DNA of 64,000 nt from an uncultured virus (IMG/VR IMGVR_UViG_3300034815_000029). Its lineage: Duplodnaviria > Heunggongvirae > Uroviricota > Caudoviricetes. The notes beneath the pieces were generated by a model that had not been told where the DNA came from, ran no database searches, and saw only the letters and a list, made by a program, of their open reading frames with translations. Every line of letters starts with the position of its first letter. The stretch's first letter is position 1. The translations under genes were made by a program, and so were the position numbers. The DNA lies in the IMG/VR virus record IMGVR_UViG_3300034815_000029; one strand, 5' to 3'. This document shows, one piece after another, positions 1 to 61,763 of this stretch.

Positions 1-127
1 GAGCTATGTGCGGAGCATGACCGAATGGCTCATGCCCTGATGACGCTGCTCGGGGAAACCGAGGACAGCGACTACATGAGTGCGGCAGAACAGCGGGCGA
101 TGGCGCGGGATGCGCTGCCGCCTAACG
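1..127 (+). repeat. 127-bp exact direct repeat, copy 1 (3' part of cassette F)
   Basis: Identical to 35880-36006; diverges right after GCCTAACG. Confidence 0.97.
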
Positions 128-178
128 CTCTCAATGAGGGGCCGCCGAAGGCGGTCCCTCTCGATTGAGTGGTTGGCC
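120..178 (-). repeat. attC site 1 (59 bp)
   Basis: Minus strand reads GGCCAAC CACTC AAT[C]GAG[A]GGG[A]CCGCC TTCG GCGGCCCCTCATT GAGAGC GTTAGGC: R''/L''/L'/R' boxes with the canonical extrahelical bases. Confidence 0.9.
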
Positions 179-199
179 GGCAACGGAAAGGACGATGAC

Positions 200-691
200 A
201 TGAACGAACTGCAATACAACCGCTGGAAACAGATGAGCCTCGGCCTGGCGCGTACCTACACGAACCTGACGCCAGCGCGGAAGGCGAGGCTGCTCGACGA
301 GGTTGAGTGCTGCATCGACTGGGTAGTGTGCAACGGCCTGGAGACCGTGGCGGACTGGGACAGCGGCGTGCAGTACGGCAAGGGCTGGCGCGAGCGCTAC
401 GAGTCCGTGAGCGCACGGGTAGATACCTTCCTTTGGGACAACCGCTACAAGTTCGAGCGCGAGAACAAGCACGGCGTCGAGGTTGTGCGCGGGCGCTTCG
501 GAGACATGCTGTCAGCCTGCGTTCGCGCTGGTTTTGATGTGGCAGTGTCCCCTAGCGGAGGCGTGATCGGCTTCACGGTCGGCGACCTGCGCGACATCTT
601 CGACGGCTCGATACCGGATTGGGTGGCGTCGCACTTCGAGGACCCGGCGGCGGTGCTGGCTGCCGGCCGCGATGAGGGCGTGTGGCTTTGA
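200..691 (+). CDS. Hypothetical protein, cassette 1 (126-698)
   Basis: ATG at 200 after AAGGA; flanked by GTTGGCCG and CGGCCAAC. Confidence 0.75.
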   Translation: MNELQYNRWKQMSLGLARTYTNLTPARKARLLDEVECCIDWVVCNGLETVADWDSGVQYGKGWRERYESVSARVDTFLWDNRYKFERENKHGVEVVRGRFGDMLSACVRAGFDVAVSPSGGVIGFTVGDLRDIFDGSIPDWVASHFEDPAAVLAAGRDEGVWL

Positions 692-692
692 C

Positions 693-751
693 GGCCAACG
701 CAAAAAATGAGGGGCTTGCGCAGCAAGTCCCGCTCGATTGATGGGTTCGGC
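693..751 (-). repeat. attC site 2 (59 bp)
   Basis: GGCCAAC...AATGAGGGG...TCCCGCTCGATT...GTTCGGC imperfect palindrome. Confidence 0.9.
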
Positions 752-773
752 GGCACAGTTAAGCGGAGAGAAA

Positions 774-1040
774 ATGCGACCAACATTTACAGCAAAGAAC
801 ATGATTATTTTGGTAACAGTTCTGCCGATAAGGATAGCTGCTCTTGGTTTACTCTGGTTCATTTCTTGGATTGGCGAGTTGGCAGATGTTGCGGCAGATT
901 GGGTTAGCTACAAAATACCTGGCCTTGAATTTGTGAGAGAAACAGAGGCAGGACGGGAAGAAAGAATGAGGCGGATTGCTGGATTGAGAAAGACTTCGCA
1001 AGAGCGCATTGACGCTGAAATTGACATGATGCATCGGTGA
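774..1040 (+). CDS. Small membrane protein, cassette 2 (699-1047)
   Basis: GGAGA RBS, hydrophobic N-terminus; flanked by GTTCGGCG and CGCCGAAC. Confidence 0.7.
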   Translation: MRPTFTAKNMIILVTVLPIRIAALGLLWFISWIGELADVAADWVSYKIPGLEFVRETEAGREERMRRIAGLRKTSQERIDAEIDMMHR

Positions 1041-1047
1041 CGCCGAA

Positions 1048-1338
1048 CTTAAATTCTTTAAAGAAATGGGGCGTAGACCAGGCGCTGGTTATTCGCTCGA
1101 TAGAATAAATAATAATCTTGGTTACACCGCAGAAAATTGTAAGTGGGCAACCACCGCCGAGCAACAAAGAAATACCAGAACCACAAAGTTGACTTATGCA
1201 TCTGTTAACGCAATGAAGCTACGCAGAGAGGAAGGTGCAACATACAAACAAATTGCTGCCGAGTTTGGCGTTTCAAGAATGTGCGCCACTCACGCAATTA
1301 TCGGAAAAACATGGGCCAATCATGAAAAAACGGAATAA
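1048..1338 (+). pseudogene. N-terminally truncated HNH endonuclease with C-terminal HTH
   Basis: LKFFKEMGRRP..SLDRINNNLGY..ENCKWAT motif; the frame reaches the cassette crossover and no N-terminal half is present. Confidence 0.7.
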
Positions 1339-6142: not shown

Positions 6143-6346
6143 TTAAACTTGCGCCACTATTCCCAGCACGCCGTCGCGCACCTCCCATTGGTGGGCATCC
6201 CTCCCCGCCCATTGCTGTTCGCTTGCCACTACCAGCTCGACGGTTCGGCGCGGCAAGGCGCTTACCGTTCCTGTCCTGTCTGGTTGGTCATACCATCCCA
6301 GCACGGGTGCCGGGTTGGTGCCTGGGCGGTAATAGGCGCACTTCAT
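6143..6346 (-). CDS. Small tail-fibre-associated protein
   Basis: Coupled to the upstream gene, downstream of the fibre. Confidence 0.5.
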   Translation of the reverse strand: MKCAYYRPGTNPAPVLGWYDQPDRTGTVSALPRRTVELVVASEQQWAGRDAHQWEVRDGVLGIVAQV

Positions 6347-6735
6347 TTGTTCCCGTCATCCATGAAAGTGGCCTGCCCGAAATTTGGGCCATCCATGCCA
6401 GCGGCAGAGCTTTCGTCGGTCTGAAAGCGGAGCAGAACCGCCAGCCTGCCGTTGCCCTTCCAGCCCGCCCCGCACTGAAAATATTTTTTAGTGAATGGCC
6501 GGATCTGAATCCCGATCCAGAAAGGCAGCCGCAACTGGAGGAATAAAACCCCGTTCATGAACAGGCTAGGGGGATCGCGGTAAATGACGCGCAGCAGATT
6601 AAAGCCGGGATAGATTAAATCGAAGAATCCGCATTGCAGGCTGATCAGGTGTACCGATCGCGCCTCCGGGATGGCGGTATGGTCGCCTAGCCAGTCGATT
6701 AATTTCCAGATTGGCGAACTTGCAAAGGGTCGCAT
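6343..6735 (-). CDS. Conserved hypothetical protein (homolog of 61368-61763)
   Basis: Shares WLGD.TAIPE, IYRDPPSLFMNG and ESSAAGMDGPN with the phage B copy. Confidence 0.85.
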   Translation of the reverse strand: MRPFASSPIWKLIDWLGDHTAIPEARSVHLISLQCGFFDLIYPGFNLLRVIYRDPPSLFMNGVLFLQLRLPFWIGIQIRPFTKKYFQCGAGWKGNGRLAVLLRFQTDESSAAGMDGPNFGQATFMDDGNK

Positions 6736-7595
6736 TACTGATCACCAAATACACTAAAACTGATTTGTGAAAAATCAGCGGCGACTACAGAGGAATTGTA
6801 CGTTTCAAGCCGGAATGTGCTGGCTGTCAATACCGTTGTCACACACGCAAAATAATTCCCACCAGGAATTACCGCATAGTTGGCAGATGACATTGCAGGG
6901 TTCAATGTGATTGTATATACACCTGGTCCACCATCGGTGATGGTTGCGCTTACACCAGACGAAATATCAAACGCAGGAGTGCCCGTACCGTTAAATCTTC
7001 CAAATGCCTTTGCAACCCCGGGATTGTGCTTTACCCCGCTCGGGGTGACGATGACAGCGGAGCTCGTTGCAGCCTCCATGTCGGCCTGAGATGCAAAGGC
7101 CATGGATTTCCCCACAGAAAAAAACGCCGTACCGTTGCAGATCAATATCCCGCTGTCGCCCGGCGCAACCGCCAGCGTCGCGGCGCCGTCTACCAGCTCG
7201 GTGGAATTCGGGTCGATGGTGATGGTGCCGCTGCCGGTGTTGCGGTAGAACACATGCCAGCCGTCGCCCAAAGTCGCGGCGGCGGTGAGGCCAAGCGGCC
7301 AGGTTCCGCTGCAATCGAGCAGTTTCGAGCGGTCTCCGGCGACCGCAGTATAGGCGCCAGTCTTGCTGGAGGTGGCAAATTTGAGTCGCAGCAGGTCGTT
7401 GTTTCCTGCTCCGGCCACGGTTTCGATTTCCACGCCGCCGCCGGTATCGAGCAGCGCCAGCGTGCCGAGTGCGGCCTTGAGCGCGTTGACCATGTCCACC
7501 ACGCCGGCCAGGTCGGTGAGCAGCGCCTGCTTGGGGTCGTCGGTGCTGGCGTCGCAGTTCGCTTTGGTGGCGTCAGCCGGGAGTGTCGTGCTCAT
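6735..7595 (-). CDS. Tail fibre protein
   Basis: Follows the J-like gene; ITIDPNSTELVDGA and ASQADMEAATS..VTP fibre motifs. Confidence 0.75.
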   Translation of the reverse strand: MSTTLPADATKANCDASTDDPKQALLTDLAGVVDMVNALKAALGTLALLDTGGGVEIETVAGAGNNDLLRLKFATSSKTGAYTAVAGDRSKLLDCSGTWPLGLTAAATLGDGWHVFYRNTGSGTITIDPNSTELVDGAATLAVAPGDSGILICNGTAFFSVGKSMAFASQADMEAATSSAVIVTPSGVKHNPGVAKAFGRFNGTGTPAFDISSGVSATITDGGPGVYTITLNPAMSSANYAVIPGGNYFACVTTVLTASTFRLETYNSSVVAADFSQISFSVFGDQ

Positions 7596-15521: not shown

Positions 15522-15814
15522 CAGGCTTTTTCCAGGAGCAGGCGGGTGAAGCCGTTGCCGTCCGGCTTGATCGCGGCGACGGTGTAGTTCACGGCGTTGA
15601 TGGTGATGGCGCTGCCTTCCACCAGGCTGGCCACGTCCGCGCTGGCGCAGGTGAATTCCGGCGCGCTGCCGGACACCATCCCGCCCGGGAATTCCGCATA
15701 GGCGTCGCCCAGCAGGCCGACGGCGCTGCCGCCGCTGAAAGTGGCGGTGTAATTGCCCAGCAGCGCCAGCGTGGCGGCGTTAAGCGTGGGCAGGATGTTG
15801 GCGAAAGCGGTCAT
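15521..15814 (-). CDS. Head-tail joining protein (FII-like)
   Basis: YTVAAIKPDGNGFTRLLL. Confidence 0.75.
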   Translation of the reverse strand: MTAFANILPTLNAATLALLGNYTATFSGGSAVGLLGDAYAEFPGGMVSGSAPEFTCASADVASLVEGSAITINAVNYTVAAIKPDGNGFTRLLLEKA

Positions 15815-15821
15815 GCAGACA

Positions 15822-15869
15822 GCATGGCTGCTGCGCGTCAACTACTTGGGCCGGATGGGTTGCGTTTTT
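15822..15869 (-). promoter_or_regulatory. Putative activator-dependent late promoter, copy 1
   Basis: 36-bp repeat (15834-15869 = 22697-22732) followed by CATGCT-N6-ATG. Confidence 0.65.
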
Positions 15870-15933: not shown

Positions 15934-17514
15934 CTAGGTTCTCGCAGTTCTAGCAATCTGGATTGAATCTCCACTACTAGGCTCATATGCACCAATACTA
16001 GGCGGAACCTGTCTGCGCCGACCTCTGTAGTCCTTTAGGCCAAATCTCGCTTTGCCAGTTCTCCACATTGGCGAGCCAGTAGCCAACTTATAATCCCCGC
16101 CAACAAAATCACTAAACAAAGGATTTACATTAAGGGCAGACGATTCTCGTGCCGCTATCCAAGCAGCTATACTTGCGTAATTTGTTCCAGCATAATGGAA
16201 CGGATTGGCTGGTAACGCGGCTGTTGAATAGTAATTGTTATTGGCAAAAGTTGCACTGTCCCCTGTGGATACCTGCGCAAATTTGACCAACGTCGAATCA
16301 GTGTAAATGATGTTGTTCTCGAAGATGATTCCAGATGCCGCTGTAGCGCTGTCAGCAGTGGTATACATCCCCGTATCGGCATACCCTCCAGCCGACATTA
16401 CCACTGTATTGCCGATAAATTTATCATTCACCCCTGCTTTTGAATACATGCAGAAATCAGTGCATTTTTCAACGACATTGCCGTAGATAAAATTGCCAGA
16501 TGTACCGCCTTTTGACAATAGTCCTATAGAGCAGTAGGAGACTTTGTTTCCCCACATGATGCCGTTATTTACAGACCCAAACATAATTGCGTGATTTGCT
16601 CCTGAGATAGTGTTCTGGTAAATATCAGCTCGAGTTATATTCGGTGTAACAAAGCTGTTGTCGTCTCCAATTCTAATTCCGATGCCAGCGGCAATTGTTC
16701 CAGCCGAAGCCAATGATCCGGTAATGCCGTATGTCTTTGCCACTGCAACCGTAATTGTTGTCGATACCGGCATGGCTGAAGCACATACAGTTGTAAACCC
16801 GCTAATATCGAATGTATGACCTCTCGAAATTTGCGATACAGAGCAGGCTTTTATATTGACACCAGTAAAGTTACTCGATCCGCCGGCGCCTGTTCCCGTG
16901 AAGGCGACATTGTAAATGTCTGCGCTACACCCACTCGCCGTTGGGATGACATAAAAACCGTAGAACGTGCCAGACAAATTGCTTACCGCCACACTTCCCG
17001 TAAGCGAGATTGTGGAAGCGCCGTCAGGAGTCACATTAACCCCCCCAATAGCTGCACCAGTGGCAATTACATGAATTGTCCCGGTCATGTTGCGGAATTT
17101 TGACCCCTTCACACCATACTGCGTGAAGTTCTGTACCCTGACTCCACTGAAAGTAATGTCATTAATGGCTGTCGTGAACTCTGACCCGATGGCATATGTG
17201 GCAGATGAATTTGCATCAACAATAATGTCACCTAGTATCGTTCCGGTAGCAGTAGACTGGACATAAATAGCATTCGATGCGTGGGATGGGCCGCATTTCA
17301 AAGTTCCAGAGTAGGGAGTGTAAGATTGAATTGAGAGGTTGGATTTATCAAGAGAAAAATACCCAGTAGTAGCTAGTGCAATAACCCCATCTACGATTAT
17401 GGTTCCTCCATTCCCAGCCGCAGTATTTGCCGCAGAAAAAGATAGTTTTGATGCCCCGCGAGTTAGACCATTATTAACGTCTGCACCATCAGATGATAAG
17501 TATATGGTAGCCAT
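15934..17514 (-). CDS. Right-handed beta-helix (pectate-lyase-like) virion protein
   Basis: N/G/T-rich repeats; NPLF..GDYKL..GSP and PSIGAYE C-terminus; lower GC than flanks. Confidence 0.75.
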   Translation of the reverse strand: MATIYLSSDGADVNNGLTRGASKLSFSAANTAAGNGGTIIVDGVIALATTGYFSLDKSNLSIQSYTPYSGTLKCGPSHASNAIYVQSTATGTILGDIIVDANSSATYAIGSEFTTAINDITFSGVRVQNFTQYGVKGSKFRNMTGTIHVIATGAAIGGVNVTPDGASTISLTGSVAVSNLSGTFYGFYVIPTASGCSADIYNVAFTGTGAGGSSNFTGVNIKACSVSQISRGHTFDISGFTTVCASAMPVSTTITVAVAKTYGITGSLASAGTIAAGIGIRIGDDNSFVTPNITRADIYQNTISGANHAIMFGSVNNGIMWGNKVSYCSIGLLSKGGTSGNFIYGNVVEKCTDFCMYSKAGVNDKFIGNTVVMSAGGYADTGMYTTADSATAASGIIFENNIIYTDSTLVKFAQVSTGDSATFANNNYYSTAALPANPFHYAGTNYASIAAWIAARESSALNVNPLFSDFVGGDYKLATGSPMWRTGKARFGLKDYRGRRRQVPPSIGAYEPSSGDSIQIARTART

Positions 17515-17524
17515 GTCCTAACCC

Positions 17525-18022
17525 TTAAGAAAAGCGGCCAACGGCAGTGCAGGAAGTCGCCGCTGCCGTGGTGATATTCCACGCACCCACTACCGATACC
17601 AGATTAATAGGCCAGACACCTAATGCCCCGGCAGGAATTACAACAACAGCTGTCGCCCCATCGAAAATCGTAATTGTTCCTGTTGAAGCAGTGATAATTA
17701 TTGAGTGTAGGAAATCTCCTATCGCACCAACTGCGCCGAGTGCTTGGGTTGTTTGCGAAGCAGCGACAGTTTCATATTCAAACTGCTGCTCGACTGCGAT
17801 TACATCAGCGGTTACACGTTCCCCAGCAGTCAGGGTAGATTGGGTGACACACACCGCGCCGTTGATGCTTTTCAGTATCCACTCGGCGCCATTCCACTCA
17901 TATTCCGAATTCGTGTCCGTCTCGTAAAAAATGACGGCCACGCTTGCATACCCGGCGAAAGCCAAGCGGTCCGCATTCGTTCCATGCATTCTCTTGACTT
18001 CATTAACGGTCGTTATGGTCAT
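17525..18022 (-). CDS. Putative head fibre/decoration-associated protein
   Basis: FYETDT..EYEWNG.EW; head operon position. Confidence 0.55.
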   Translation of the reverse strand: MTITTVNEVKRMHGTNADRLAFAGYASVAVIFYETDTNSEYEWNGAEWILKSINGAVCVTQSTLTAGERVTADVIAVEQQFEYETVAASQTTQALGAVGAIGDFLHSIIITASTGTITIFDGATAVVVIPAGALGVWPINLVSVVGAWNITTAAATSCTAVGRFS

Positions 18023-20558: not shown

Positions 20559-22126
20559 TCGTAGTCCCTCTTGAAATTGACCAGCCGTCCGCGCGCTTCC
20601 TCTTCGGCGGGGACGGCGGGCGGGTTGGACGGGTCAGCCTCGACTTGCTCCGCCAGCGGGTCGGTGTCGGTCTGGATGTCGGCGGCCCCCATCAGGTCCA
20701 GCTCGCGGCGGCGTTCCTTGATCACGTCTTCCAGGTCCTGGCCGCTGCCGGTCTGCGCGATCACCGCCGACACGGTGGTGAAGCCGCAGCGCACCGCTTC
20801 CTTGTAGGCGTTGACCTCCTTGGTGGGATCGACCCAGGACCAGCCGCGCGGCTTCCAGGTGACGGCGCGGAAATACTCGGGGTTGGCGACGTAGGCCGGC
20901 ACGCTGACGCGCGGCACGGCGCGGGACAGCACGGCGGCTTCGAGCCAGATTTTGTGCAGGCGGGCGCGGAACACGCGTATCCACCACTGCTGCAGCACGC
21001 GCCAGCCTTCGCGGTCGTCCACCAGCGCCATGCGGCTGCTGCTGTAGTTGCTCTGGCTGTAGTCGCGGCTGAGGGATTCGTAGCTGATGCCGAAGGCGGC
21101 GGCGATGTCGCGCAGCGCGGCGCGCACGAAGGGGTCGAAGTTCTCGTTCGGGTAGGTCGGGTTCCAGTCGGCCAGCTTGGTGCCTGACGGCAGGATGTCC
21201 ACCTGTCCCTTGGCGCTGTTCCAGGTCAGGGTGCCATCATTCTCGGAATCGTCGCCCAGGCTTTCGGCGAGCCCGCCGCCCTCGGTTTCTTCCAGCACCA
21301 TGACTTTTTCCGCGCCGATACGCGCCGCGACCACGGCGGCGTCCTGGAATTCTCCCAGCTGGTTGAGGCGCAGCATCGCCGCGTGCATCCACGGCACCCC
21401 GCGCACCTGCGGCCAGCGGTCGATCTGGCGCAGGTGGATGATGTCCTCCGCCGGGACGCGCACCAGCCGGTCGGACACGCGGTCGCGGCGCGGGTCGCCG
21501 GGGTGGTATTCGTGCAGCCAGTAGGCCACCGGGCGGTTGTAGCTGTCGCACTCGACGCCCTGGCGCACCAGGTTGCCGTTGACGCTGGGCGCTTCCCATT
21601 CGTCGGCCAGCCGTTCCGCCTCGATCACTTCCAGCGACAGCGGCACCTTGCCGCGCCCGCTGCGGTGGACGCGGATCAGTACGTCGCCGGCCTCGAACAC
21701 CTCCGCCATGCACAGCCGCTCCAGGTCGGAAAAGTGCAGGCTGCCGCCGATATGGCAGTGTTCCGCCTGCATCCAGTCTTCCCAGGCGGCCTCGATGTCG
21801 GTGTTGAATTCTTCCATCAGGCGCGCGCGGTTGTTGACGATGGCAGCCTGCATGCCGATGCCCTGGCCGATCACGTTGTTCACCACCACGGTGCGGGCGC
21901 GCTTGGCGTGGGCGTTGTCGCGCACCAGGGCGCGGGAGCGGTTGCGCAGCGCGGCCAGGCTGCTGACGGATTCCATGTCGGCGCTGCTGGTGCCGGAACT
22001 CCAGCCGCTGGTCAGGTTGGACTGGCGGGCGGCGGCAAACATGCGCTTGGAATGGCCGGCCACGGTAGAGCGCGGCTGGGCCTTGCCACGGAAATCGAAC
22101 AGGCGGCTGATCCAGTTTTTTGCCAT
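20555..22126 (-). CDS. Lambda-family portal protein
   Basis: LRNRSRALVRDN, QVRGVPW, NYSSSR, WVDPTKE. Confidence 0.92.
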   Translation of the reverse strand: MAKNWISRLFDFRGKAQPRSTVAGHSKRMFAAARQSNLTSGWSSGTSSADMESVSSLAALRNRSRALVRDNAHAKRARTVVVNNVIGQGIGMQAAIVNNRARLMEEFNTDIEAAWEDWMQAEHCHIGGSLHFSDLERLCMAEVFEAGDVLIRVHRSGRGKVPLSLEVIEAERLADEWEAPSVNGNLVRQGVECDSYNRPVAYWLHEYHPGDPRRDRVSDRLVRVPAEDIIHLRQIDRWPQVRGVPWMHAAMLRLNQLGEFQDAAVVAARIGAEKVMVLEETEGGGLAESLGDDSENDGTLTWNSAKGQVDILPSGTKLADWNPTYPNENFDPFVRAALRDIAAAFGISYESLSRDYSQSNYSSSRMALVDDREGWRVLQQWWIRVFRARLHKIWLEAAVLSRAVPRVSVPAYVANPEYFRAVTWKPRGWSWVDPTKEVNAYKEAVRCGFTTVSAVIAQTGSGQDLEDVIKERRRELDLMGAADIQTDTDPLAEQVEADPSNPPAVPAEEEARGRLVNFKRDYE

Positions 22127-22677
22127 CAGCCGAACCTCACCAGCACGCGACGCACGTCGGTGCCTTTTTGCGCCGCCGCCTCGCGCCGGACTTCAGTCAG
22201 CAGCCGGGAGCGCAGCGCCATCAGCGTGGCGGGGTTGTATTCCATGCTGCGATCGGCCAGCGCGGCCTTGACGATGTCGAGCTGCGAGGCCGTGGCCTTG
22301 GAGGTCAGCGCGGCCTCCACCGCATCCAGCATGGTGCGGGCGAAGCTGCGCGCGTCATAGACGGCGTCGGTCTCGAAGTTGTGCAGCACCCTGAGCCGGC
22401 CGGCATCCACCTGGACCCGCTCGCTCGCCGATTCCGCCAGCGCCACCCAGTCGTAGTCGCCGACCGTGTAGGCGGACGTGGTCGCCATGGCCACGGAAAC
22501 GGCATGGTTCACGCCGTCGGCGGCGGCGGCAATGGCAAATTTGGCGGTGGCGTTGCGGAAGTAATACGTCAGCACCCAGGTCGGGGCCGGGTAGTCAGCC
22601 AGATCCTCGCGGCGCCATTTCCAGGTGTCGCCAGCGCGCGCGGAGGTCGGTTCGGTAGTCGGGACGGTTGCGGTCAT
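22126..22677 (-). CDS. Head completion/joining protein
   Basis: AGDTWKW...; between terminase and portal. Confidence 0.65.
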   Translation of the reverse strand: MTATVPTTEPTSARAGDTWKWRREDLADYPAPTWVLTYYFRNATAKFAIAAAADGVNHAVSVAMATTSAYTVGDYDWVALAESASERVQVDAGRLRVLHNFETDAVYDARSFARTMLDAVEAALTSKATASQLDIVKAALADRSMEYNPATLMALRSRLLTEVRREAAAQKGTDVRRVLVRFG

Positions 22678-22684
22678 GTCGAAA

Positions 22685-22732
22685 GCATGGCCTCACCGCG
22701 TCAACTACTTGGGCCGGATGGGTTGCGTTTTT
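22685..22732 (-). promoter_or_regulatory. Putative activator-dependent late promoter, copy 2
   Basis: Same 36-bp element plus CATGCT-N6-ATG. Confidence 0.65.
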
Positions 22733-22761
22733 AGCAACTCCGGAATAGGGGCTATTTTAAG

Positions 22762-23517
22762 TTAGCCGTCAAAGCATCCGCACGGTATTTCGACCGCGCC
22801 CCTAAACATATCCATCTGTGCATCGTCGTACCTCACTAGGTCGGCCCACGCATACGAGCGGCCAAGACCTTTCACGCTGGTTAGTTTCGCGCCTGCTTCC
22901 ATCGCCAGCGCCCGCTGAATCAAATCCGGGTGCTGGCGCTTCAGTTCCAAAATCTCATGCGGCTTGCTGCTCGGGCAAAAGAAGCAGGCGCTTTTCCCCG
23001 GTTGCGGCAGTCCTGCGCGCCGGATCGCTTCCACACATTCATCGCGTCCCCAATCCCACTCAATCAACGGGTAGCGCGTTTCCTCGTACTTCGCTCGGTG
23101 CGCCTCGCCTGCATCAATGCCGACCCAAAACCACGGCGCGGCTATTCCCTGCGCTTTGAGCCACCGCTTCTGCGGCCTGATCTTGTAGTGGTCGCTGCAA
23201 CTCTTAAAGCCATACGCAATTCCAGGCAGTGCGCCGCGTGTAAGGCAGTCGGCTTCAAGGCTTACCGCTTCCGCTACAGTTACGATCCGAGGAAAACCAA
23301 CCCCTTCGCACCAATCGCTTACCGCGTCCTTGTGGCGGTAGGTTTCCGGCCTCTCGCCTCCGGTATCAGCGAACAAAATCAAGTCAGGTCGCTCGCCGCG
23401 TTCGTGCATGCCTATCAGCATGGCCGTGCTGTTCGTACCAGCTCCGTAGCTCACCACAATAGTCGGCGCTGGCAGTACGGCGGCGTTACTCTCAGTTTCT
23501 TGCAAGTTGTTCTCCAA
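22762..23517 (-). CDS. PAPS-reductase-like (PP-loop, Cys-rich) protein, solitary cassette K (22762-23575)
   Basis: SYGAGTNS, FADTGGE, KSACFFCP, CGCFDG; stop codon inside the GTTAGCC core; start codon uncertain. Confidence 0.8.
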   Translation of the reverse strand: MENNLQETESNAAVLPAPTIVVSYGAGTNSTAMLIGMHERGERPDLILFADTGGERPETYRHKDAVSDWCEGVGFPRIVTVAEAVSLEADCLTRGALPGIAYGFKSCSDHYKIRPQKRWLKAQGIAAPWFWVGIDAGEAHRAKYEETRYPLIEWDWGRDECVEAIRRAGLPQPGKSACFFCPSSKPHEILELKRQHPDLIQRALAMEAGAKLTSVKGLGRSYAWADLVRYDDAQMDMFRGAVEIPCGCFDG

Positions 23518-23521
23518 TGCC

Positions 23522-23581
23522 GGCTAACAAGTCATTCCACCGGACGGCCTTCGGCCGCGCGGTGAATTCCGAGCGTTATCG
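23522..23581 (+). repeat. attC site K (60 bp)
   Basis: GGCTAAC AAGTC ATT[C]CACCG...CGGTGAAT TCCGAGC GTTATCG; R'' complements GTTAGCCG at 22761. Confidence 0.88.
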
Positions 23582-23842
23582 GCGCCGGGTGATCTTGTGC
23601 ACGTACTGCCGGCTGACCCCGAAGCGTTCCACCACCACGGCGGTCGGCAACTTCTTGGCCGCCTCGACGATTTCGCGCTTCTTGCCGGTGTCCGGCGCCG
23701 GGATGTAGACCCGCTCGCCCGGCAGGCTGCGCCGGATGGTCTGCTCCAGCTCGCGCGCGCACTGCTCGCCGAAACTCACCGCCGGATGCCGGGCGCGCAG
23801 GAAATTGAGGATCAGGTCGATCTGTTCGTTCAGCGTCGCCAT
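23576..23842 (-). CDS. Mor/C-like transcription activator
   Basis: GERVYIP then C-terminal HTH (RFGVSRQYVHKI). Confidence 0.75.
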   Translation of the reverse strand: MATLNEQIDLILNFLRARHPAVSFGEQCARELEQTIRRSLPGERVYIPAPDTGKKREIVEAAKKLPTAVVVERFGVSRQYVHKITRRR

Positions 23843-23843
23843 C

Positions 23844-25829
23844 CTACCTCCTCCTCACGATGCCGCGCGGGCCGGGTTTTTGTTTTACTGCTGGCGGTGG
23901 TGGAGGGATATTTGTTACATCGAACAGGTCGCCGACCACAGGCTGGAAACGGGTCTCCAGATCGCTCCAGTATTTCGCGCTTTTTTTCGATAATTCAAAA
24001 TAGGTCTCCAGCCACACGGCGTAAACGGTGCAGTCCCAGGCTTCGACACGCTTCCTGATCGCCGTCCAGGTGGACTCCTCACCGCGCACGGTGCGGCGGG
24101 TGGTGCGGGCTTCGCCGGTGAATTGCCTGAAGAATTCGTCGCTGAGTTCGTTGCTGAAATGCATGTACCCGGGACCGGGACGGGTGATTTGCAGGCGCCC
24201 GTAGATCAGGTCTTTGGCGTGGTTGGTGCCGACCCACCACAGCACCAGTCCGTTTTTGCGCAGCCTGCCCTTCCAGTCGATGTCCACTTTGCTGGCGCCG
24301 TCGCGGATGTGTTTTTCACGCCCGGACCGTCCGCCAATGGCGAACACTTTGCGGCGGCTGTGCTTGGCGCAGAAATTGTAAACGGCGTGGGTGTTGTGGC
24401 CGCGAGTATCGATGGCCGTGCCGGATATGCGCAGGCGCTGTCCGCTGGCATGGTTGAATTCTGTCTCGAAGATGAATTCTTCCAGGTCTTGCCAGACTTC
24501 GTCCTCGTCCGGGTTGCCGAAGAAGATGCGGTGGGCGATGGCCCATTTCTCGCAGCCGCGCCCGTATCCCCATACGACGCACTCCAGACGGTTGGGCTGG
24601 GTGTCTACCCCGGCCAGCAACAGCACGGCTCCCATCGGGACGCGCTCCAGCGGGTAGGGTTCGGCGCGGGCGCGGAGTTCGTTTTCGTCCGACTTCTCGA
24701 AGGCTTCTGCCCAGTATTCGCCGAGGGTGGTGTTCCAGAATGCCTGGAGTTTTTCTTTCTTGCCCTCTCCGCCTTCGCGGTAGGCGGCGATAAAGTCGCG
24801 GGCAATGCTCACCCAGGAGACGTTCGGGCTGTAGGCGCTCCAGGTGTGGAAGGCGATGCGCGCCGGAGGGCGGACAAATTGTCCGGTGGCGTCCCTGAAT
24901 ATCCCGGAAGTGTCGCAGGTGGTGCCATCTTCGGACTGGTAGTGGCCCTGGTCGCAAATGGCCAGGTATTGTGCCTGCTCGATCAGCGCACCGCAGTGCG
25001 GGCACAGATGGCGGACCGTCTCCGGGTTGTCGTCTGTCCACTTGAATCCATGGGGCTCGTCCTTGCCGCCCCAGGTTAGCGGATGAAACTCGCCGCATTC
25101 CGGGCAGGGGATGTGCGGCTGCATGAACAGGTCCGCATCGCGCTCGCGCTTTTCGATGTTGGAGAAGCCCTTGAGCTTCGGTGTGCTGCCGATCACCAGC
25201 TTGGGGAAGGTGGCGCCCTCGATGCGCTTTGCCGCGAGCGTTCCGGGGTCTCCCTCCTTTTCGATGTTGCTGTCGAAGGCGTCGTATTCGTCCAGGTAGC
25301 CCGTATCGGCGCTGATGCGGCGGTAATTCTTGGCCGCCTTGCCGCCCTTCAGGTGGGCCATCGATCCGAGGAACTTCTTGGCCTGGAGCGTGTTGTCCTT
25401 GTCGCGCTTGAGGTAGGCAGGGAAAACGCCCTCCATCACCGCTACGTCGCGCAGCATAGGGTCGAGTTCGGTCTTGACAAACTCGTCGCGGTCGTCGTCG
25501 GTAGGCTGCCAAAGGACCTGATTCCGGCGCTTATGCTGGGCAAAGTAACCCATTGCCGCCAGAATGATCTTGGTATATCCGACCCGCGCTGATTTTCTCC
25601 AGATCACCTCGCGGATGTCGTCGTTGCTGATGCAGGCCATGATGGCGCGCTGGAACCACCAGGGCGTCCAGGACTGCTCGACGTAGGATGACTCAGCCGA
25701 TAGATAAAAATGCTTGCACGCCCACTCGTCCAGGCTCATCGGTTCAGGCACACCGAAAGCGGATAGCCCTTTCGCCAGGTGCAGCTGCATGGCAGGCAGA
25801 ATGAATCGGCTGTGCTCGCTCAGGTCCAT
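23844..25829 (-). CDS. Terminase large subunit, lambda gpA family
   Basis: KSARVGYTK Walker A, LDEYD, CPECGE, AGVDTQ. Confidence 0.95.
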   Translation of the reverse strand: MDLSEHSRFILPAMQLHLAKGLSAFGVPEPMSLDEWACKHFYLSAESSYVEQSWTPWWFQRAIMACISNDDIREVIWRKSARVGYTKIILAAMGYFAQHKRRNQVLWQPTDDDRDEFVKTELDPMLRDVAVMEGVFPAYLKRDKDNTLQAKKFLGSMAHLKGGKAAKNYRRISADTGYLDEYDAFDSNIEKEGDPGTLAAKRIEGATFPKLVIGSTPKLKGFSNIEKRERDADLFMQPHIPCPECGEFHPLTWGGKDEPHGFKWTDDNPETVRHLCPHCGALIEQAQYLAICDQGHYQSEDGTTCDTSGIFRDATGQFVRPPARIAFHTWSAYSPNVSWVSIARDFIAAYREGGEGKKEKLQAFWNTTLGEYWAEAFEKSDENELRARAEPYPLERVPMGAVLLLAGVDTQPNRLECVVWGYGRGCEKWAIAHRIFFGNPDEDEVWQDLEEFIFETEFNHASGQRLRISGTAIDTRGHNTHAVYNFCAKHSRRKVFAIGGRSGREKHIRDGASKVDIDWKGRLRKNGLVLWWVGTNHAKDLIYGRLQITRPGPGYMHFSNELSDEFFRQFTGEARTTRRTVRGEESTWTAIRKRVEAWDCTVYAVWLETYFELSKKSAKYWSDLETRFQPVVGDLFDVTNIPPPPPAVKQKPGPRGIVRRR

Positions 25830-33383: not shown

Positions 33384-33461
33384 TTTGAACGTAGAGCTAA
33401 CCGGCGGCGCTTTAGCGCCGTCCAGCGACCGAAGGGAGCGAGGTTGAGCGCCTTGTTAGGG
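33384..33461 (-). repeat. attC A (78 bp)
   Basis: Minus strand CCCTAAC AAGGC GCT[C]AACC...GGTTAGC TCTAC GTTCAAA. Confidence 0.88.
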
Positions 33462-33474
33462 GCCAACTGCACGG

Positions 33475-34173
33475 ATGATTGAACTGCTACACACCGACTG
33501 CATGACTTACATGGCGGCGCTGCCAGATGCGGCCTTTGACTTGGCGATTGTTGACCCGCCATACGGGCGCGGCGAGGACGGCGGCACAAACCGATGCCAC
33601 GGCGTGAAGCAGAAGAACGGCGCGGTGCTGCGGTGCCTCGATGGCGGCTACGCGAAGAAGGCTTGGGACAAGGAACCGCCACCGCCTGAGTATTTCGCGG
33701 AACTGCGCAGGGTGGCAAAGCACCAGATTGTTTGGGGTGCGAACTACATGCCGGTGAAACTGCAAGGCGGGGCAATTGTTTGGGACAAGGTGAATGACGG
33801 AGCCGACCAGAGCGGCGCGGAAATAGCCTACTGCAGCTTGAACGAGCGCGTGGACGTGGTGCGCTATATGTGGCGCGGGATGATGCAGGGAGAGGCGGTA
33901 GGCAGCCAACGCCAGCAGGGAAACAAGGCGCTGAACGAGCGCCGGATTCACCCGACACAGAAGCCGGTTAAGTTGTACGAATGGTTGCTGCAGCAGTACG
34001 CGCAGCCGGGAATGAAGGTTTTAGATACCCACCTTGGCAGCGGGAGCGCGGCGATTGCAGCGCACTACTACGGGGTGGATTTTGTGGGGTGCGAGATAGA
34101 TGCCGACTACTGGCTAGCAGCCAAGGAACGGTTTGAGGCTGAAACCCGGCAGATGGCGTTACTTGGCCCCTAA
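33475..34173 (+). CDS. N4C/N6A DNA methyltransferase, cassette A
   Basis: DPPY, HPTQKP, LDTHLGSGS. Confidence 0.9.
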   Translation: MIELLHTDCMTYMAALPDAAFDLAIVDPPYGRGEDGGTNRCHGVKQKNGAVLRCLDGGYAKKAWDKEPPPPEYFAELRRVAKHQIVWGANYMPVKLQGGAIVWDKVNDGADQSGAEIAYCSLNERVDVVRYMWRGMMQGEAVGSQRQQGNKALNERRIHPTQKPVKLYEWLLQQYAQPGMKVLDTHLGSGSAAIAAHYYGVDFVGCEIDADYWLAAKERFEAETRQMALLGP

Positions 34174-34229
34174 CGCATAGGTAAGGGGACTGAGCAACGC
34201 GAAGTTCCCGCTTGACCGCTGAGTTAGGC
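34168..34229 (-). repeat. attC B (62 bp)
   Basis: CCCTAAC...GGTAAGGGGA...TCCCGCTTGACC...GTTAGGC. Confidence 0.9.
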
Positions 34230-34253
34230 GGAATTTTGAAAAAGGAGATGGTC

Positions 34254-34427
34254 GTGGCAAAACTAATAACGTTGAACATTGAGCGATTTGTGGTTTGCAG
34301 CACTGGCGAGGAAATGGAAATACCAGAACCGGCAGACAGTCTTGAAGCCGCGATAAAACTTCGAGACGATAAGCAGGCTGGTGATGAATATGAGACATGG
34401 GAAATTGTGGCGGAAGTTGCCGCCTAA
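34254..34427 (+). CDS. Hypothetical protein, cassette B
   Basis: AAGGAG RBS; stop codon in GCCTAAC. Confidence 0.65.
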   Translation: MAKLITLNIERFVVCSTGEEMEIPEPADSLEAAIKLRDDKQAGDEYETWEIVAEVAA

Positions 34428-34512
34428 CGGCGAAGCTAAGGGGCGCGAGCGATGACAAAACAACGAAGTGAGCCGGATGTTCGAGCGTCACGCCTTGAGC
34501 GCCTTGTTGGGC
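34422..34512 (-). repeat. attC C (91 bp)
   Basis: GCCTAAC...GCTAAGG...CCTTGAGC...GTTGGGC. Confidence 0.82.
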
Positions 34513-34676
34513 GATTGTGGGCATTAGTCTGGAGGCGATGGATGACTGGCCCAGGTGGGCAACCTCGCCGTGTGGTGCGCGTGAAGGGGTGGCGCACTGC
34601 GATTATTGAGAGCGATTGGGAAATGCGGCAGACCATTACGCCATGTTTCTCGATTTTTGGATGGCGGTTTGATTGA
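34452..34676 (+). CDS. Hypothetical protein, cassette C (starts inside the attC loop)
   Basis: ATG at 34452 lies within attC C. Confidence 0.55.
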   Translation: MTKQRSEPDVRASRLERLVGRLWALVWRRWMTGPGGQPRRVVRVKGWRTAIIESDWEMRQTITPCFSIFGWRFD

Positions 34677-34680
34677 TGAC

Positions 34681-34747
34681 GCCCAACGCCTGATTTCACC
34701 GGCCTGAGCGGCTTTTTGCTCAGGTCCGGTGGAATGATTGGTTGGCC
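34681..34747 (-). repeat. attC D (67 bp)
   Basis: GCCCAAC...TTCACCGGCCTGAGC...GCTCAGGTCCGGTGGAA...GTTGGCC. Confidence 0.9.
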
Positions 34748-34775
34748 GGCTGGTAGCTACGAAGTGAGGAATTAA

Positions 34776-35483
34776 ATGGCTGAAAAAGTAACGATAGGGA
34801 CCGCTGAATTGTGGCACGGAGACTGCAGGGAAGTTCTGCCGTTGCTGCCAGACTGCGACCTGATTTTGACAGACCCGCCATACGGCCTGAACGAAGCGGC
34901 CGGAAAGAACCGAAGCCGTGGAAGCGCTGCAGGCGCGAACAAGTGGAAAGGCTCGCGCAACACGACAGGTGTTGGCGTTGCCTCGACGGACTTTGGCGAG
35001 CCGAGCGAATGGGATAGTGCGCCGCCCCCGACGTGGGTGATTGAGATGATGCGCGCCAAGGGGAAATGGCAAGTGATGTTCGGCGGCAACTATTACCCGC
35101 TGCCGCCGGCCAGGTGCTGGCTTGTGTGGGACAAGGACAACGGGGAAACCGATTTCGCGGACTGCGAACTTGCGTGGACGAACTTGCCGAAAGCGGTGCG
35201 CCGGCTGCGCTGGATGTGGAACGGCATGCTGCAGCAGGACATGGCGAACAAGGAAGAACGACAGCACCCGACGCAGAAGCCGGTGCCGGTGATGCGGTGG
35301 GCTTTGCTTCAAGTTCCCGACGCCGAGACGGTTTGCGACCCATTCATGGGCAGCGGAACAACAGGGGTGGCGTGTTGGATGGAAGGGCGGCGGTTCGTCG
35401 GCATTGAGCGCGAACGCCGGTATTTCGATATTGCTTGCGAGCGGATTGCCCGCGCACAGGCACAAGAGCGGCTGTTCGCATGA
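34776..35483 (+). CDS. N4C/N6A DNA methyltransferase, cassette D
   Basis: TDPPY, HPTQKP, DPFMGSGTTG. Confidence 0.92.
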   Translation: MAEKVTIGTAELWHGDCREVLPLLPDCDLILTDPPYGLNEAAGKNRSRGSAAGANKWKGSRNTTGVGVASTDFGEPSEWDSAPPPTWVIEMMRAKGKWQVMFGGNYYPLPPARCWLVWDKDNGETDFADCELAWTNLPKAVRRLRWMWNGMLQQDMANKEERQHPTQKPVPVMRWALLQVPDAETVCDPFMGSGTTGVACWMEGRRFVGIERERRYFDIACERIARAQAQERLFA

Positions 35484-35487
35484 AGAC

Positions 35488-35556
35488 GGCCAACGCAGAG
35501 GTAAGCCGATGACAAAAGCGCAGCTTTTGGCAGTCGGCTTGACCGCCGGGTTAGCC
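35488..35556 (-). repeat. attC E (69 bp)
   Basis: GGCCAAC...GGTAAGCCGA...TCGGCTTGACC...GTTAGCC. Confidence 0.9.
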
Positions 35557-35736
35557 GGGGGCCGAGCCGCACACGAACAATGGGAGCGCACCCGAGGCGA
35601 TGAAAACGAGTGCGATGCAGAGAAACGGCTACACGAAGAGGTTTCAGAAAGTGGCAACACGATACCGAGTGAGTGGTGGCATGGATGGCTCGAACGCTCC
35701 GATGAGTGGCGAGACGAAATCGAACATGCCGGCTAA
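35509..35736 (+). CDS. Hypothetical protein, cassette E (starts inside attC)
   Basis: GAGGT RBS and ATG within attC E; stop codon in GGCTAAC. Confidence 0.55.
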   Translation: MTKAQLLAVGLTAGLAGGRAAHEQWERTRGDENECDAEKRLHEEVSESGNTIPSEWWHGWLERSDEWRDEIEHAG

Positions 35737-35790
35737 CGATTAGCTTAAGGGGCGGCTGTTAAGCCGTCCCGCTTGAAGCGCCGGTTAGGC
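35731..35790 (-). repeat. attC F (60 bp)
   Basis: GGCTAAC...CTTAAGGGGCGGC...GCCGTCCCGCTTGAAG...GTTAGGC. Confidence 0.9.
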
Positions 35791-35804
35791 GCAGAAAGGT
35801 GAAT

Positions 35805-36047
35805 ATGACAGCAAGGCACGAAATAGGGAAGTGGCTGAATGAACAGCCGAACCGCGAGATTGACCGGCGGGTATTGGCCGAGCTATGTGCGGAGCATGAC
35901 CGAATGGCTCATGCCCTGATGACGCTGCTCGGGGAAACCGAGGACAGCGACTACATGAGTGCGGCAGAACAGCGGGCGATGGCGCGGGATGCGCTGCCGC
36001 CTAACGTCGGCGGTAACCGGCTTGCGCCCGCACAGGAGCAACGATGA
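35805..36047 (+). CDS. Hypothetical protein, cassette F (reads into the next attC)
   Basis: AAGGTG RBS; its 3' part is also present at 1-127. Confidence 0.7.
   Translation: MTARHEIGKWLNEQPNREIDRRVLAELCAEHDRMAHALMTLLGETEDSDYMSAAEQRAMARDALPPNVGGNRLAPAQEQR
35880..36006 (+). repeat. 127-bp exact direct repeat, copy 2
   Basis: Identical to 1-127. Confidence 0.97.
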
Positions 36048-36427: not shown

Positions 36428-37432
36428 ATGAATGAGTTGGAGCTTTTCGCAGGCGCTGGTGGCGGAATACTCGGGTCAATGTTGCTCGGGCACAGAACCG
36501 TATGCGCCGTTGAATTCGATGCATATGCCAGATCAGTTTTATTGGCCAGACAAGCCGACGGAACATTCCCGACTTTCCCGGTTTGGGACGACGTGCGCAC
36601 CTTTGACGGAACACCGTGGCGCGGAATTGTTGACGTGGTTTCGGGAGGTTTCCCGTGCCAGGATTTGTCGGTTGCGGGGAAAGGGGCAGGACTTGATGGA
36701 AAGCGCAGCGGATTGTGGCGAGAAATGGCGCGGATCATTGGCGAAGTACGACCCCGCTACGCATTCATTGAAAACAGCCCAGCTCTCATTACTAGAGGAC
36801 TTGACCGGGTGCTCTGTGATCTTGCCGCGCTCGGGTTTGATGCGCGATGGGGTGTGCTCGGAGCTTCCGATGTTGGCGCTCCGCACAAGCGCGAGAGAAT
36901 CTGGATATTGGGCTACTCCCGCAGCTTCGGACGGGACACGGGGAGGAAAAATCACCGACAAGATGACGGGGCAATCATTGGTTCAGATGGTCAACACGCC
37001 AGCGAAGTGGCCGACACCAACGGCGAGCGACCACACGGGGCCGGGATATGCCGCGCAGGGCGGGTTGAATTTGAGGACGGCGGTTGCTCTATGGCCAACC
37101 CCGACAGTCTGCGGGAACTACAACCGCAATGGAGCGAGTGCATCGAGCGGGGATGGGTTGGCAACTGCTGTTCGGACGTGGCCAACAGCAACAGCATACA
37201 AGGGCTGGAGTCAGAAACACAACCGAGCGAACACGGACGACCGGCTGGATTATTCGGTGGAACGCGAGAATTTCAGCATTGGCCAGCAGACCCCGCCGAT
37301 GCGCCTGAATCCAAATTGGGTCGAGTGGTTGATGGGTTGGCCAATCGGGCAAACAGAATTAAAGCCATTGGAAACGGGCAGGTTCCGAGAGTTCGAGCAG
37401 CAGCATGGCGGATTTTGACGCACAACGGCTGA
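36428..37432 (+). CDS. C5 cytosine DNA methyltransferase (alpha polypeptide), cassette H
   Basis: LFAGAGG, GGFPCQD, IENS, HKRERIW, IGNGQVP. Confidence 0.92.
   Translation: MNELELFAGAGGGILGSMLLGHRTVCAVEFDAYARSVLLARQADGTFPTFPVWDDVRTFDGTPWRGIVDVVSGGFPCQDLSVAGKGAGLDGKRSGLWREMARIIGEVRPRYAFIENSPALITRGLDRVLCDLAALGFDARWGVLGASDVGAPHKRERIWILGYSRSFGRDTGRKNHRQDDGAIIGSDGQHASEVADTNGERPHGAGICRAGRVEFEDGGCSMANPDSLRELQPQWSECIERGWVGNCCSDVANSNSIQGLESETQPSEHGRPAGLFGGTREFQHWPADPADAPESKLGRVVDGLANRANRIKAIGNGQVPRVRAAAWRILTHNG
36432..37418 (+). CDS. Overlapping +1-frame ORF, putative beta polypeptide of the MTase
   Basis: Open along the whole gene; WPTP repeats; motif IX-like LNPNWVEWLMGWP. Confidence 0.65.
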   Translation: MSWSFSQALVAEYSGQCCSGTEPYAPLNSMHMPDQFYWPDKPTEHSRLSRFGTTCAPLTEHRGAELLTWFREVSRARICRLRGKGQDLMESAADCGEKWRGSLAKYDPATHSLKTAQLSLLEDLTGCSVILPRSGLMRDGVCSELPMLALRTSARESGYWATPAASDGTRGGKITDKMTGQSLVQMVNTPAKWPTPTASDHTGPGYAAQGGLNLRTAVALWPTPTVCGNYNRNGASASSGDGLATAVRTWPTATAYKGWSQKHNRANTDDRLDYSVERENFSIGQQTPPMRLNPNWVEWLMGWPIGQTELKPLETGRFREFEQQHGGF

Positions 37433-61030: not shown

Positions 61031-61368
61031 CAGCGTTTCCCGCCTTCATACGGAACAGCCAGGCCCAGCGCCAGCATTTCCTGATTGATCGATCTCCACC
61101 CGCCATCAACCCGCTCCAGGATGTCTACCAGCCAGCGCCCGTATTTGTCCGCCTTGGCGGTTTCTACCTCTAGCCTGCTCAAGTCGTTGCCGATACGCCC
61201 GATCAGCCATTGCTTTGCCGCCTCGCCGCCGCTCGCCATTTCCGGCGTGTTAATATGTGCCATTCGGCAGATGGCCCGATAGCTCATTCTGAAACCACAA
61301 TCGAAGGTCATTTCTACGCTATCCCCGTCGATTACGCGAGCAGCAATGATTTTGTATCGGTAGGTCAC
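61030..61368 (-). CDS. Thermonuclease (SNase) family protein
   Basis: RVIDGDS, INTPE, DKYGRWL, YEGGKR. Confidence 0.85.
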   Translation of the reverse strand: MTYRYKIIAARVIDGDSVEMTFDCGFRMSYRAICRMAHINTPEMASGGEAAKQWLIGRIGNDLSRLEVETAKADKYGRWLVDILERVDGGWRSINQEMLALGLAVPYEGGKR

Positions 61369-61763
61369 TATTTTGCTCCGTCATTCATATATGTGGCCTG
61401 TCCATAATTTGGGCCGTCCATACCTGCTGCGCTGGATTCATCATGCTGAAACCGAATTGGGATGCCAAGCCTACCATTACCCTTCCACCCTATACCACAC
61501 TGGAAATAACGTTCTGTAAATGGGCGAATCTGAATCCCGATCCAGAATGGAAGGCGCATTTGCAGGAAGAAAACCCCATTCATGAACAGGCTGGGCGGAT
61601 CACGATAGATTAGTCGCGCCAACGTGAAACCCACATGGTCGAAGAACCCGCATTGCAGGCTCAACAGGTGGATGGAGTATCGTTCTGGTATAGCAGTGCG
61701 ATCACCGAGCCAGTCGATGATCTGCCAGAGCGTTGTAAGATTCTCGAATGGTCTGCTCATCAT
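61368..61763 (-). CDS. Conserved hypothetical protein (homolog of 6343-6735)
   Basis: Full-length similarity to the phage A gene. Confidence 0.85.
   Translation of the reverse strand: MMSRPFENLTTLWQIIDWLGDRTAIPERYSIHLLSLQCGFFDHVGFTLARLIYRDPPSLFMNGVFFLQMRLPFWIGIQIRPFTERYFQCGIGWKGNGRLGIPIRFQHDESSAAGMDGPNYGQATYMNDGAK

What the first reader, a model, noticed from the sequence alone, without database searches (positions are those of the whole stretch)
22741..23581. Solitary cassette inserted exactly at the stop codon of the Mor-like gene in the packaging operon
Seen: a PAPS-reductase-like gene with its own attC sits between the Mor-like activator and the head genes, about 10 kb from the main array. 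Removing 22762-23575 restores TTTTAAG|TTATCGG and keeps the Mor TAA intact. GTTAT fits the GWTMW consensus I recall for IntI secondary (attG) sites. Inference: this is an independent, non-disruptive insertion, showing that cassettes can land outside arrays and seed new ones.
Basis: partly seen in the sequence, partly recalled or inferred. Interest (0 to 1): 0.8.

Follow-up and report, generated by a model that had tools for sequence, protein, structure and literature searches.

The report
Backward integron cassette in phage operon
A bacterial virus carries a single portable gene cassette of the integron type, with its gene facing backwards, slotted in right after a stop codon among its DNA-packaging genes, a spot where other phages have also picked up such cassettes.

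Summary
Window 22762-23575 is an 814-bp integron-type cassette: canonical attC, R'' complementary to the cassette's own first bases, and the same gene sits in attC arrays of other phages with homology ending exactly at 22761. Unrelated phages also carry cassettes between terminase and the head-tail gene (L111 at the same Mor TAA|C, L053, L145). The window has no integron integrase, but other viral contigs do. The 'plain attG' reading is only partly supported. No exact empty site was found. Distant empty relatives lack about 30-42 further bases. The target shares TTTAAG|TT with both array ends in the window, and a weak signature with attI sites beside phage intI genes. An attI-like preferred site is slightly favoured over a random secondary site. 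Solitary cassettes and phage attC clusters are published; I found no paper on antisense phage cassettes. This scan has noted them on many other genomes, once at a terminase stop. The cargo is a PAPS-reductase-fold protein with six invariant cysteines, probably modifying nucleic acid.

The parts
22762..23575 (+). Integron-type gene cassette, 814 bp (attC top strand on +, gene on -)
   Evidence: R''/start complementarity 8 of 8; homology to L002, L003, L009 ends at 22761; GC 0.59 against 0.68 and 0.62 in the flanks
22762..23505 (-). Cargo ORF, 247 aa from TTG 23505 (GGAG at 23515-23512; alternative TTG 23517). PAPS-reductase/PP-loop fold, six invariant Cys; stop TAA is part of the crossover core
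   Evidence: start inferred from likeness to the L020 5' end
23522..23575 (+). attC: R'' 23522-28, L'' 23534-41, variable stem 23542-60, L' 23561-67, crossover after G 23575
22737..22761 (+). Left half of the target: inverted core-like box GGCTATT 22750-56, 4-nt spacer, G 22761; part of 30-42 nt that distant empty relatives lack
   Evidence: attI-like status is inference
23576..23842 (-). Mor-like HTH gene, 88 aa; its TAA (23578-23576) abuts the crossover
22670..22734 (-). Putative head-gene promoter module, downstream of the cassette and intact; second copy at 15807-15869 (89% over 63 bp)
   Evidence: promoter role inferred from position and conservation; no sigma-70 match found
22126..22677 (-). 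Head-tail joining gene, 183 aa
   Evidence: phrog_5774 E 1.5e-33
23844..25829 (-). Large terminase gpA
   Evidence: Pfam
33390..36004 (-). attC array of phage A, first part (six cassettes, ORFs on +, two DNA methyltransferases)
126..1047 (-). attC array of phage A, continuation across the circle junction (two cassettes); ends at GAA|CTTAAA
36005..38286 (-). attC array part of the second element B (Lar-like, DNA methyltransferase, two small ORFs); ends at TAA|CTTAAA

Best explanation
This is one cassette of a phage-adapted pool in which the gene runs antisense to attC, so the attC sits in front of the gene on the transcribed strand and the gene ends at TAA|C. An integron integrase supplied in trans (host integron or a phage that encodes IntI) recombined the folded attC of the circular cassette with the G|TT at the Mor-like stop codon. 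Because the core read backwards is TAA|C, the stop survives and the cargo joins the terminase-Mor transcript, upstream of the head-gene promoter module. The target is not an arbitrary GWT: it is a preferred, attI-like site (inverted core-like box four bases from the crossover), probably a short foreign piece or a selected hot spot. Shown: cassette anatomy, mobility of the gene, exact ends, recurrence at this locus, IntI in other viral contigs. Inferred: the enzyme source, co-transcription, the origin of the target. Cargo: most likely an Fe-S-binding adenylating enzyme that modifies phage DNA or nucleotides against host restriction (about 0.4); true sulfate reduction about 0.15.
For: Same gene at 90% (L002) and 80% (L003, L009) DNA identity inside attC arrays, homology ending at 22761. 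Model R1: 37 of 37 hits outside the window lie antisense to the gene, in 13 of 78 viral loci; 20 of 20 hits in 5 of 20 genome loci. 19 of 99 homologue loci have an end core matched by an inverse core near the start, control 40 of 986. IntI above the TIGR02249 cut-off beside such arrays in L021, L026, L028. Same locus occupied in L111 (exactly at Mor TAA|C, other cargo), L145 (two cassettes at the stop of a Q-like gene after terL) and L053 (two cassettes, one a 54% homologue). AACTTAAA occurs 4 times in the window against 0.47 expected, 3 of 4 at cassette or array ends. Purine at +6 with T at +8 after AA|C: 13 of 13 intI-adjacent sites, 6 of 10 intI-less ends (T at +8 alone 9 of 10), 3 of 3 window ends, 1 of 13 internal attC junctions, 8.3% of background. 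Only 30 of 751 GWT sites on that strand of the late region are outside ORFs and 2 are at a stop.
Against: No empty allele or excised form seen. The attI-like signature is low in information: a profile from intI-adjacent sites ranks this site only in the top 6.1% of background, and two internal attC junctions score as well or nearly so. The segment was not found as an attI elsewhere: 35 other exact 16-18-mer matches had no attC or intI, and 6 matches to a wider motif had no attC. TAA|CTT at the Mor stop in three relatives fits a native site. The signature may be the unseen 'left motif' of attG hot spots. No IntI in the window. No expression or enzyme data.
Confidence: 0.55

Rival explanations
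1. One reading: same IntI-mediated insertion, but into a native secondary (attG) site that happened to overlap the Mor stop; selection against gene disruption explains the position, and the extra bases come from ordinary phage mosaicism.
For: GTTAT fits GWT and GWTMW. TAA|CTT at the Mor stop in L103, L104, L114, and a longer look-alike of the reconstructed site at the terminase end of L082-L084. The segment is not found beside any intI.
Against: Shared TTTAAG|TT at three ends in one window and in L145; 30-42 extra bases against relatives; the CRGM hot-spot motif reported at +6 to +9 sits here at +5 to +8.
Confidence: 0.33
2. The extra segment is the collapsed attC of an older cassette, so the present cassette entered by attC x attC recombination and the locus is an eroded two-cassette array; or the whole block was copied in from another phage by homologous or illegitimate recombination.
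For: The segment holds AAC, 5 nt, a 5-bp stem, 4 nt, GTT (sequence). Truncated attC-like ends occur in L053 and L078. The cassette is itself mosaic: body like L002, 5' end like L020, attC like the array site at 34681.
Against: That hairpin is not predicted to form (z -0.24); the +6/+8 signature is typical of attI-side ends and rare at attC junctions (1 of 13).
Confidence: 0.1
3. Not an integron cassette: an ordinary moron next to a chance hairpin, or moved by the phage's own integrase.
For: Whole-site folding is not better than shuffles; 80 of 99 homologue loci fail the inverse-core test; the homologue in phage PARCL1pr has no clear attC.
Against: Exact box geometry, end-to-end core match, identical end point in array copies; the phage integrase scores 30 bits against a 265 cut-off for IntI.
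Confidence: 0.02

Closest known systems
SALIN / attG insertion (Loot et al., bioRxiv 10.1101/2022.09.11.507474)
   Same: Single attC with its gene, no integrase nearby, crossover at G|WT, expression expected from a resident promoter.
   Different: Here in a phage packaging operon, gene antisense to attC, target with an attI-like signature; that study screened bacterial genomes, and 'phage' occurs twice in its main text.
Phage CALINs (Qi et al. 2023, PMC9892861)
   Same: attC clusters without intI in phage genomes, DNA methyltransferase cargo; five of six tested phage attC recombined with attI1.
   Different: They required two or more attC, so single sites were not examined; they describe typical cassette structure and do not report uniformly antisense cargo or a recurring late-operon locus in the main text.
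Canonical integrons (intI, attI, attC array)
   Same: attC geometry; in L021, L026, L028 intI lies on the strand opposite the attC top strand.
   Different: Cargo faces the same way as intI and phage transcription; the inverted box at the array end sits 4 nt from the core.
PAPS/APS reductase (CysH) and related PP-loop enzymes (LarE, TtuA, DndC/SspD/BrxP)
   Same: Fold: Foldseek E 5e-6 to 1e-4, TM about 0.4-0.48 to LarE and to PAPS/APS reductases; N-terminal SYGxGxNS loop.
   Different: 13-22% identity only; below Pfam and NCBIfam cut-offs; ends in PCGCFDG; no partner NTPase in the cassette, which phosphorothioation needs.

Membership tests
Integron gene cassette | attC with R''-L''-L'-R' boxes, spacers and extra-helical base | tested here: met
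Integron gene cassette | R'' complementary to the cassette's own first bases; ends at G|TT | tested here: met
   8 of 8; circle folds 4 kcal/mol better
Integron gene cassette | Same unit found in other contexts with the same end | tested here: met
   L002, L003, L009 end at 22761; their attCs differ
Integron gene cassette | ORF on the attC top strand (usual, not obligatory; from my own knowledge) | tested here: not met
   ORF antisense here and in all model hits near homologues
Integron gene cassette | IntI-dependent excision or integration | not testable with these tools
   no joint listed; needs an assay
SALIN | Single attC, no other att site or intI nearby | tested here: inconclusive
   nearest attC 9.8 kb away and no intI, but the target may be attI-like
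attG secondary site | GWT at -1 to +2 | tested here: met
   GTT
attG secondary site | Hot-spot CRGM at +6 to +9 | tested here: not met
   CGGC lies at +5 to +8; defined for IntI1 in E. coli hot spots only
attG secondary site | Native sequence present uninterrupted in relatives | tested here: inconclusive
attI | Adjacent intI | tested here: not met
attI | Inverted second binding box near the core, as in intI-adjacent phage sites | tested here: inconclusive
   +6/+8 signature met, profile rank top 6.1%
PAPS/APS reductase | Profile score above curated cut-off | tested here: not met
   19 against 22.5 bits; 15.5 against 553
PAPS/APS reductase | PP-loop alpha/beta fold | tested here: met
   model pLDDT 90; Foldseek
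PAPS/APS reductase | Catalytic activity on APS or PAPS | not testable with these tools
   none

The most novel reading that the evidence does not exclude
Phages make new cassettes in place. IntI plants inverted attC sites at TAA|C stop codons of resident genes; two such events around a gene, followed by loss of the first cargo, turn that phage gene into a mobile antisense cassette. The terminase/Mor-head-tail junction is a recurring nursery for this, seeded by short attI-like pieces, and co-infecting phages trade the cassettes. This would explain why the cargo is ordinary phage genes that also exist without attC (80 of 99 loci fail the cassette test) and why near-identical genes carry different attC sites.
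Probability: 0.22. Interest if true: 0.85.

Novelty: new variant of a known kind. Interest (0 to 1): 0.56.

Why it matters
It shows integron-type recombination used by phages as a gene-swapping system that reaches into the essential packaging operon without breaking it, and gives a natural single-cassette site with a repeatable locus to test. If stop-codon targeting converts resident genes into cassettes, the open question of how cassettes are born becomes testable. The single insertion by itself is an expected product of known IntI chemistry.

Tried and rejected
Exact empty site: 0 matches in viral and metagenome contigs. No whole genome held. No Rfam match, no tRNA. No RNA holder listed. Four of ten runs laid: depth over the cassette equals the flanks (50.2 against 49-52 in X1); the 23575 junction is bridged in X1, X4, X5; no piece bridging 22761 is among those shown; 4 joints and 584 pieces were not shown; X1 may be the source sample. 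L001 is identical to the window and not counted as independent. Head-tail search in genome contigs with the single protein found nothing. Search for the target segment as an attI elsewhere: negative. An alternative left end at G22727 was considered, since it would give native spacing, and rejected because the T-run is also in the second promoter copy. No sigma-70 promoter or terminator match in 22500-24000. Cultured-phage collection: best homologue 51% (PARCL1pr), not a clean cassette. Rows dropped: for the end motif, L261 (candidate 804 nt from intI), L110 (uncertain), L009, L046, L151 (no end found), L038, L039, L053, L187 (next junction another attC, unclear or cut); L206, L215 and L244 sites were picked by eye; 54 of 63 IntI loci were scanned. 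For Mor spacing 26 of 34 Mor-positive loci were used (seven near-duplicates and L160 left out). R1 was built from 13 window sites and 2 L002 sites, which match by construction. Part of the output was cut. The ORF list behind the GWT count was hand-made.

Full report
Setting. The window is phage DNA. Bases 1-127 equal 35880-36006, so 1-36006 is a circle of about 35.9 kb (phage A) with lambda-like terminase, portal and capsid genes on the minus strand. The rest (element B: ParA, TrfA-type replicase, a 4626-aa methylase-helicase protein) has about a third of the depth in run X1. The finding lies in phage A between a Mor-like gene and the head-tail joining gene.

Anatomy. The attC reads on the plus strand with standard boxes and the extra C in L''. 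Its R'' matches the first bases of the insert at 22761-22768 in 8 of 8 positions, the signature of a cassette that was a circle; the circle junction folds at -18.9 against -14.9 kcal/mol in place. Energy alone would not have singled it out (z -0.69). The ORF is on the minus strand, antisense to the attC, so on the transcribed strand the order is Mor stop TAA|C, attC, ribosome-binding site, gene, TAA|C. All 12 array attC sites in the window have the same reversed relation to their ORFs.

Mobility. The gene occurs at 90% DNA identity in L002 and about 80% in L003 and L009, inside attC arrays, with homology stopping at window 22761. Their attC sites differ from this one; the 5' end here resembles L020 and the attC resembles the array site at 34681. 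With model R1, 13 of 78 viral homologue loci had hits and all 37 hits were antisense to the gene; 5 of 20 genome loci likewise. A model-free test found 19 of 99 loci with a matched end core and inverse core, against 40 of 986 for controls. Most homologues are therefore plain phage genes and a minority are cassettes.

Recombinase. The phage A integrase is not an IntI (30 bits, cut-off 265) and tblastn finds no IntI in the window. Three homologue loci carry IntI above the cut-off. A scan gave 63 viral loci related to these; 14 of 54 scanned had attC hits upstream on the strand opposite intI and one (L230) had hits on the other strand. Supply in trans is inference.

The locus recurs. Among 84 head-tail loci scanned, two have antisense attC between terminase and head-tail gene: L111, where a different cassette starts exactly at the Mor TAA|C, and L145, with two cassettes at the stop of a Q-like gene. 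L053, found through the cargo, has two cassettes there, one a 54% identical homologue; since the window's gene is 95% identical to an early-array cassette, I infer separate arrivals. Of 25 other Mor-positive loci examined, 20 have about 23-60 nt between Mor stop and head-tail start, two have attC cassettes, and three have 116-325 nt without an R1 hit. So the locus tolerates cassettes and can hold small arrays. A stop codon is favoured because the core read backwards is TAA|C, and only 30 of 751 GWT sites on that strand are outside ORFs, 2 at a stop.

The target. The reconstructed spacing is 85 nt; alignments with L092, L112 and others leave 30-42 extra bases at the junction. AACTTAAA occurs 4 times in the window against 0.47 expected, three times at ends of cassette blocks, and L145 ends the same way. 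Sites beside phage intI genes all have purine +6 and T +8 after AA|C (13 of 13), as do the three window ends, 6 of 10 other intI-less ends, 1 of 13 internal attC junctions and 8.3% of background sites. Against this: the signature is weak, the segment was not found beside an intI or attC elsewhere, and L103, L104, L114 show TAA|CTT natively. I put attI-like at 0.55, plain attG at 0.33, eroded attC or block transfer at 0.10; that it is a cassette with these ends is about 0.95.

Expression and cargo. No sigma-70 promoter or terminator match lies in 22500-24000. A conserved module repeated at 15807-15869 lies between cassette and head-tail gene, so head genes probably keep their own promoter while the cargo rides on the terminase-Mor transcript (inference). 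The protein models well (pLDDT 90) and matches LarE and PAPS/APS reductases at 13-22% identity. Six cysteines are invariant in 51 aligned homologues (one row with a stop was dropped). It is below family cut-offs. Array neighbours are DNA methyltransferases and a Lar-like protein, so I favour nucleic-acid modification against restriction, but phosphorothioation needs a partner NTPase (PMC12914056, passages) that the cassette lacks. Phage homologues are of unknown function (PMC11437467, one passage).

Literature. Loot et al. (bioRxiv 10.1101/2022.09.11.507474; passages and sections 33 and 35; supplements not seen) define SALIN and attG with GWT. GWTMW appears in PMC4618277 (one passage). Qi et al. 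(PMC9892861; main text read; supplements not read, and they may show orientations) describe phage CALINs with methyltransferases. PMC12901181 and PMC8876359 were seen as passages. Seven searches (listings only for the other papers) showed no paper on uniformly antisense phage cassettes or on this locus; subscription journals are largely outside the library. Earlier notes of this scan report antisense phage cassettes on at least eight other genomes and one solitary cassette at a terminase stop; these are unchecked notes and I did not re-test their loci.

Verdict. Real, a new variant of a known kind. The single insertion is expected IntI chemistry; the reversed cargo, the recurring late-operon locus and the attI-like target are the parts worth following. 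Interest 0.56.

Noticed in passing
window 1-127 and 35880-36006: 127-bp exact repeat: phage A closes as a circle and its array continues at 126-1047. The window is probably a chimera or co-integrate with element B; the break at 36006 is 2 nt past an attC crossover.
   Followed up: partly
window 33423-34688 and about 35740-36006: In run X1 depth is 64.7 here against 48-49 in phage A and 12-17 in element B, as expected if two different phages share identical cassettes, which hints at recent cassette exchange (contig depths only).
   Followed up: partly
window 1048-1338: A truncated HNH endonuclease ORF begins right after the end of the phage A array.
   Followed up: no
window 15934-18022: Low-GC (46-48%) two-gene insert in the head-tail region, followed by a terminator-like hairpin and the second copy of the promoter module; weak DUF5123 match.
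   Followed up: no
window 36428-37432: The cytosine methyltransferase ORF (334 aa) overlaps a 328-aa ORF on the same strand in another frame over nearly its whole length; the same layout appears in L028.
   Followed up: no
window 6343-7595 and 61368-62830: Phage A and element B share related tail-region genes (about 71-80% DNA identity in two stretches).
   Followed up: no
L053 1191-1538: The other cassette at the Mor locus encodes a 115-aa protein with a weak Arr-ms ADP-ribosyltransferase match, below cut-off; its attC appears largely deleted.
   Followed up: no
L026, L028, L038, L039, L053, L078: In several homologous cassettes the ORF starts inside the attC loop; in the window's cassette it starts just outside.
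   Followed up: partly
L021 4786-5832, L026 5871-6875, L028 4861-5898, L206-L268: Viral contigs with their own IntI, co-oriented with the antisense cargo; their attI-side box lies 4 nt from the core.
   Followed up: partly
L082-L084, terminase end and Mor end: Both gene ends carry a similar GATAACTT-type motif, and the terminase-end copy resembles the window's Mor end over about 20 nt; unexplained.
   Followed up: no
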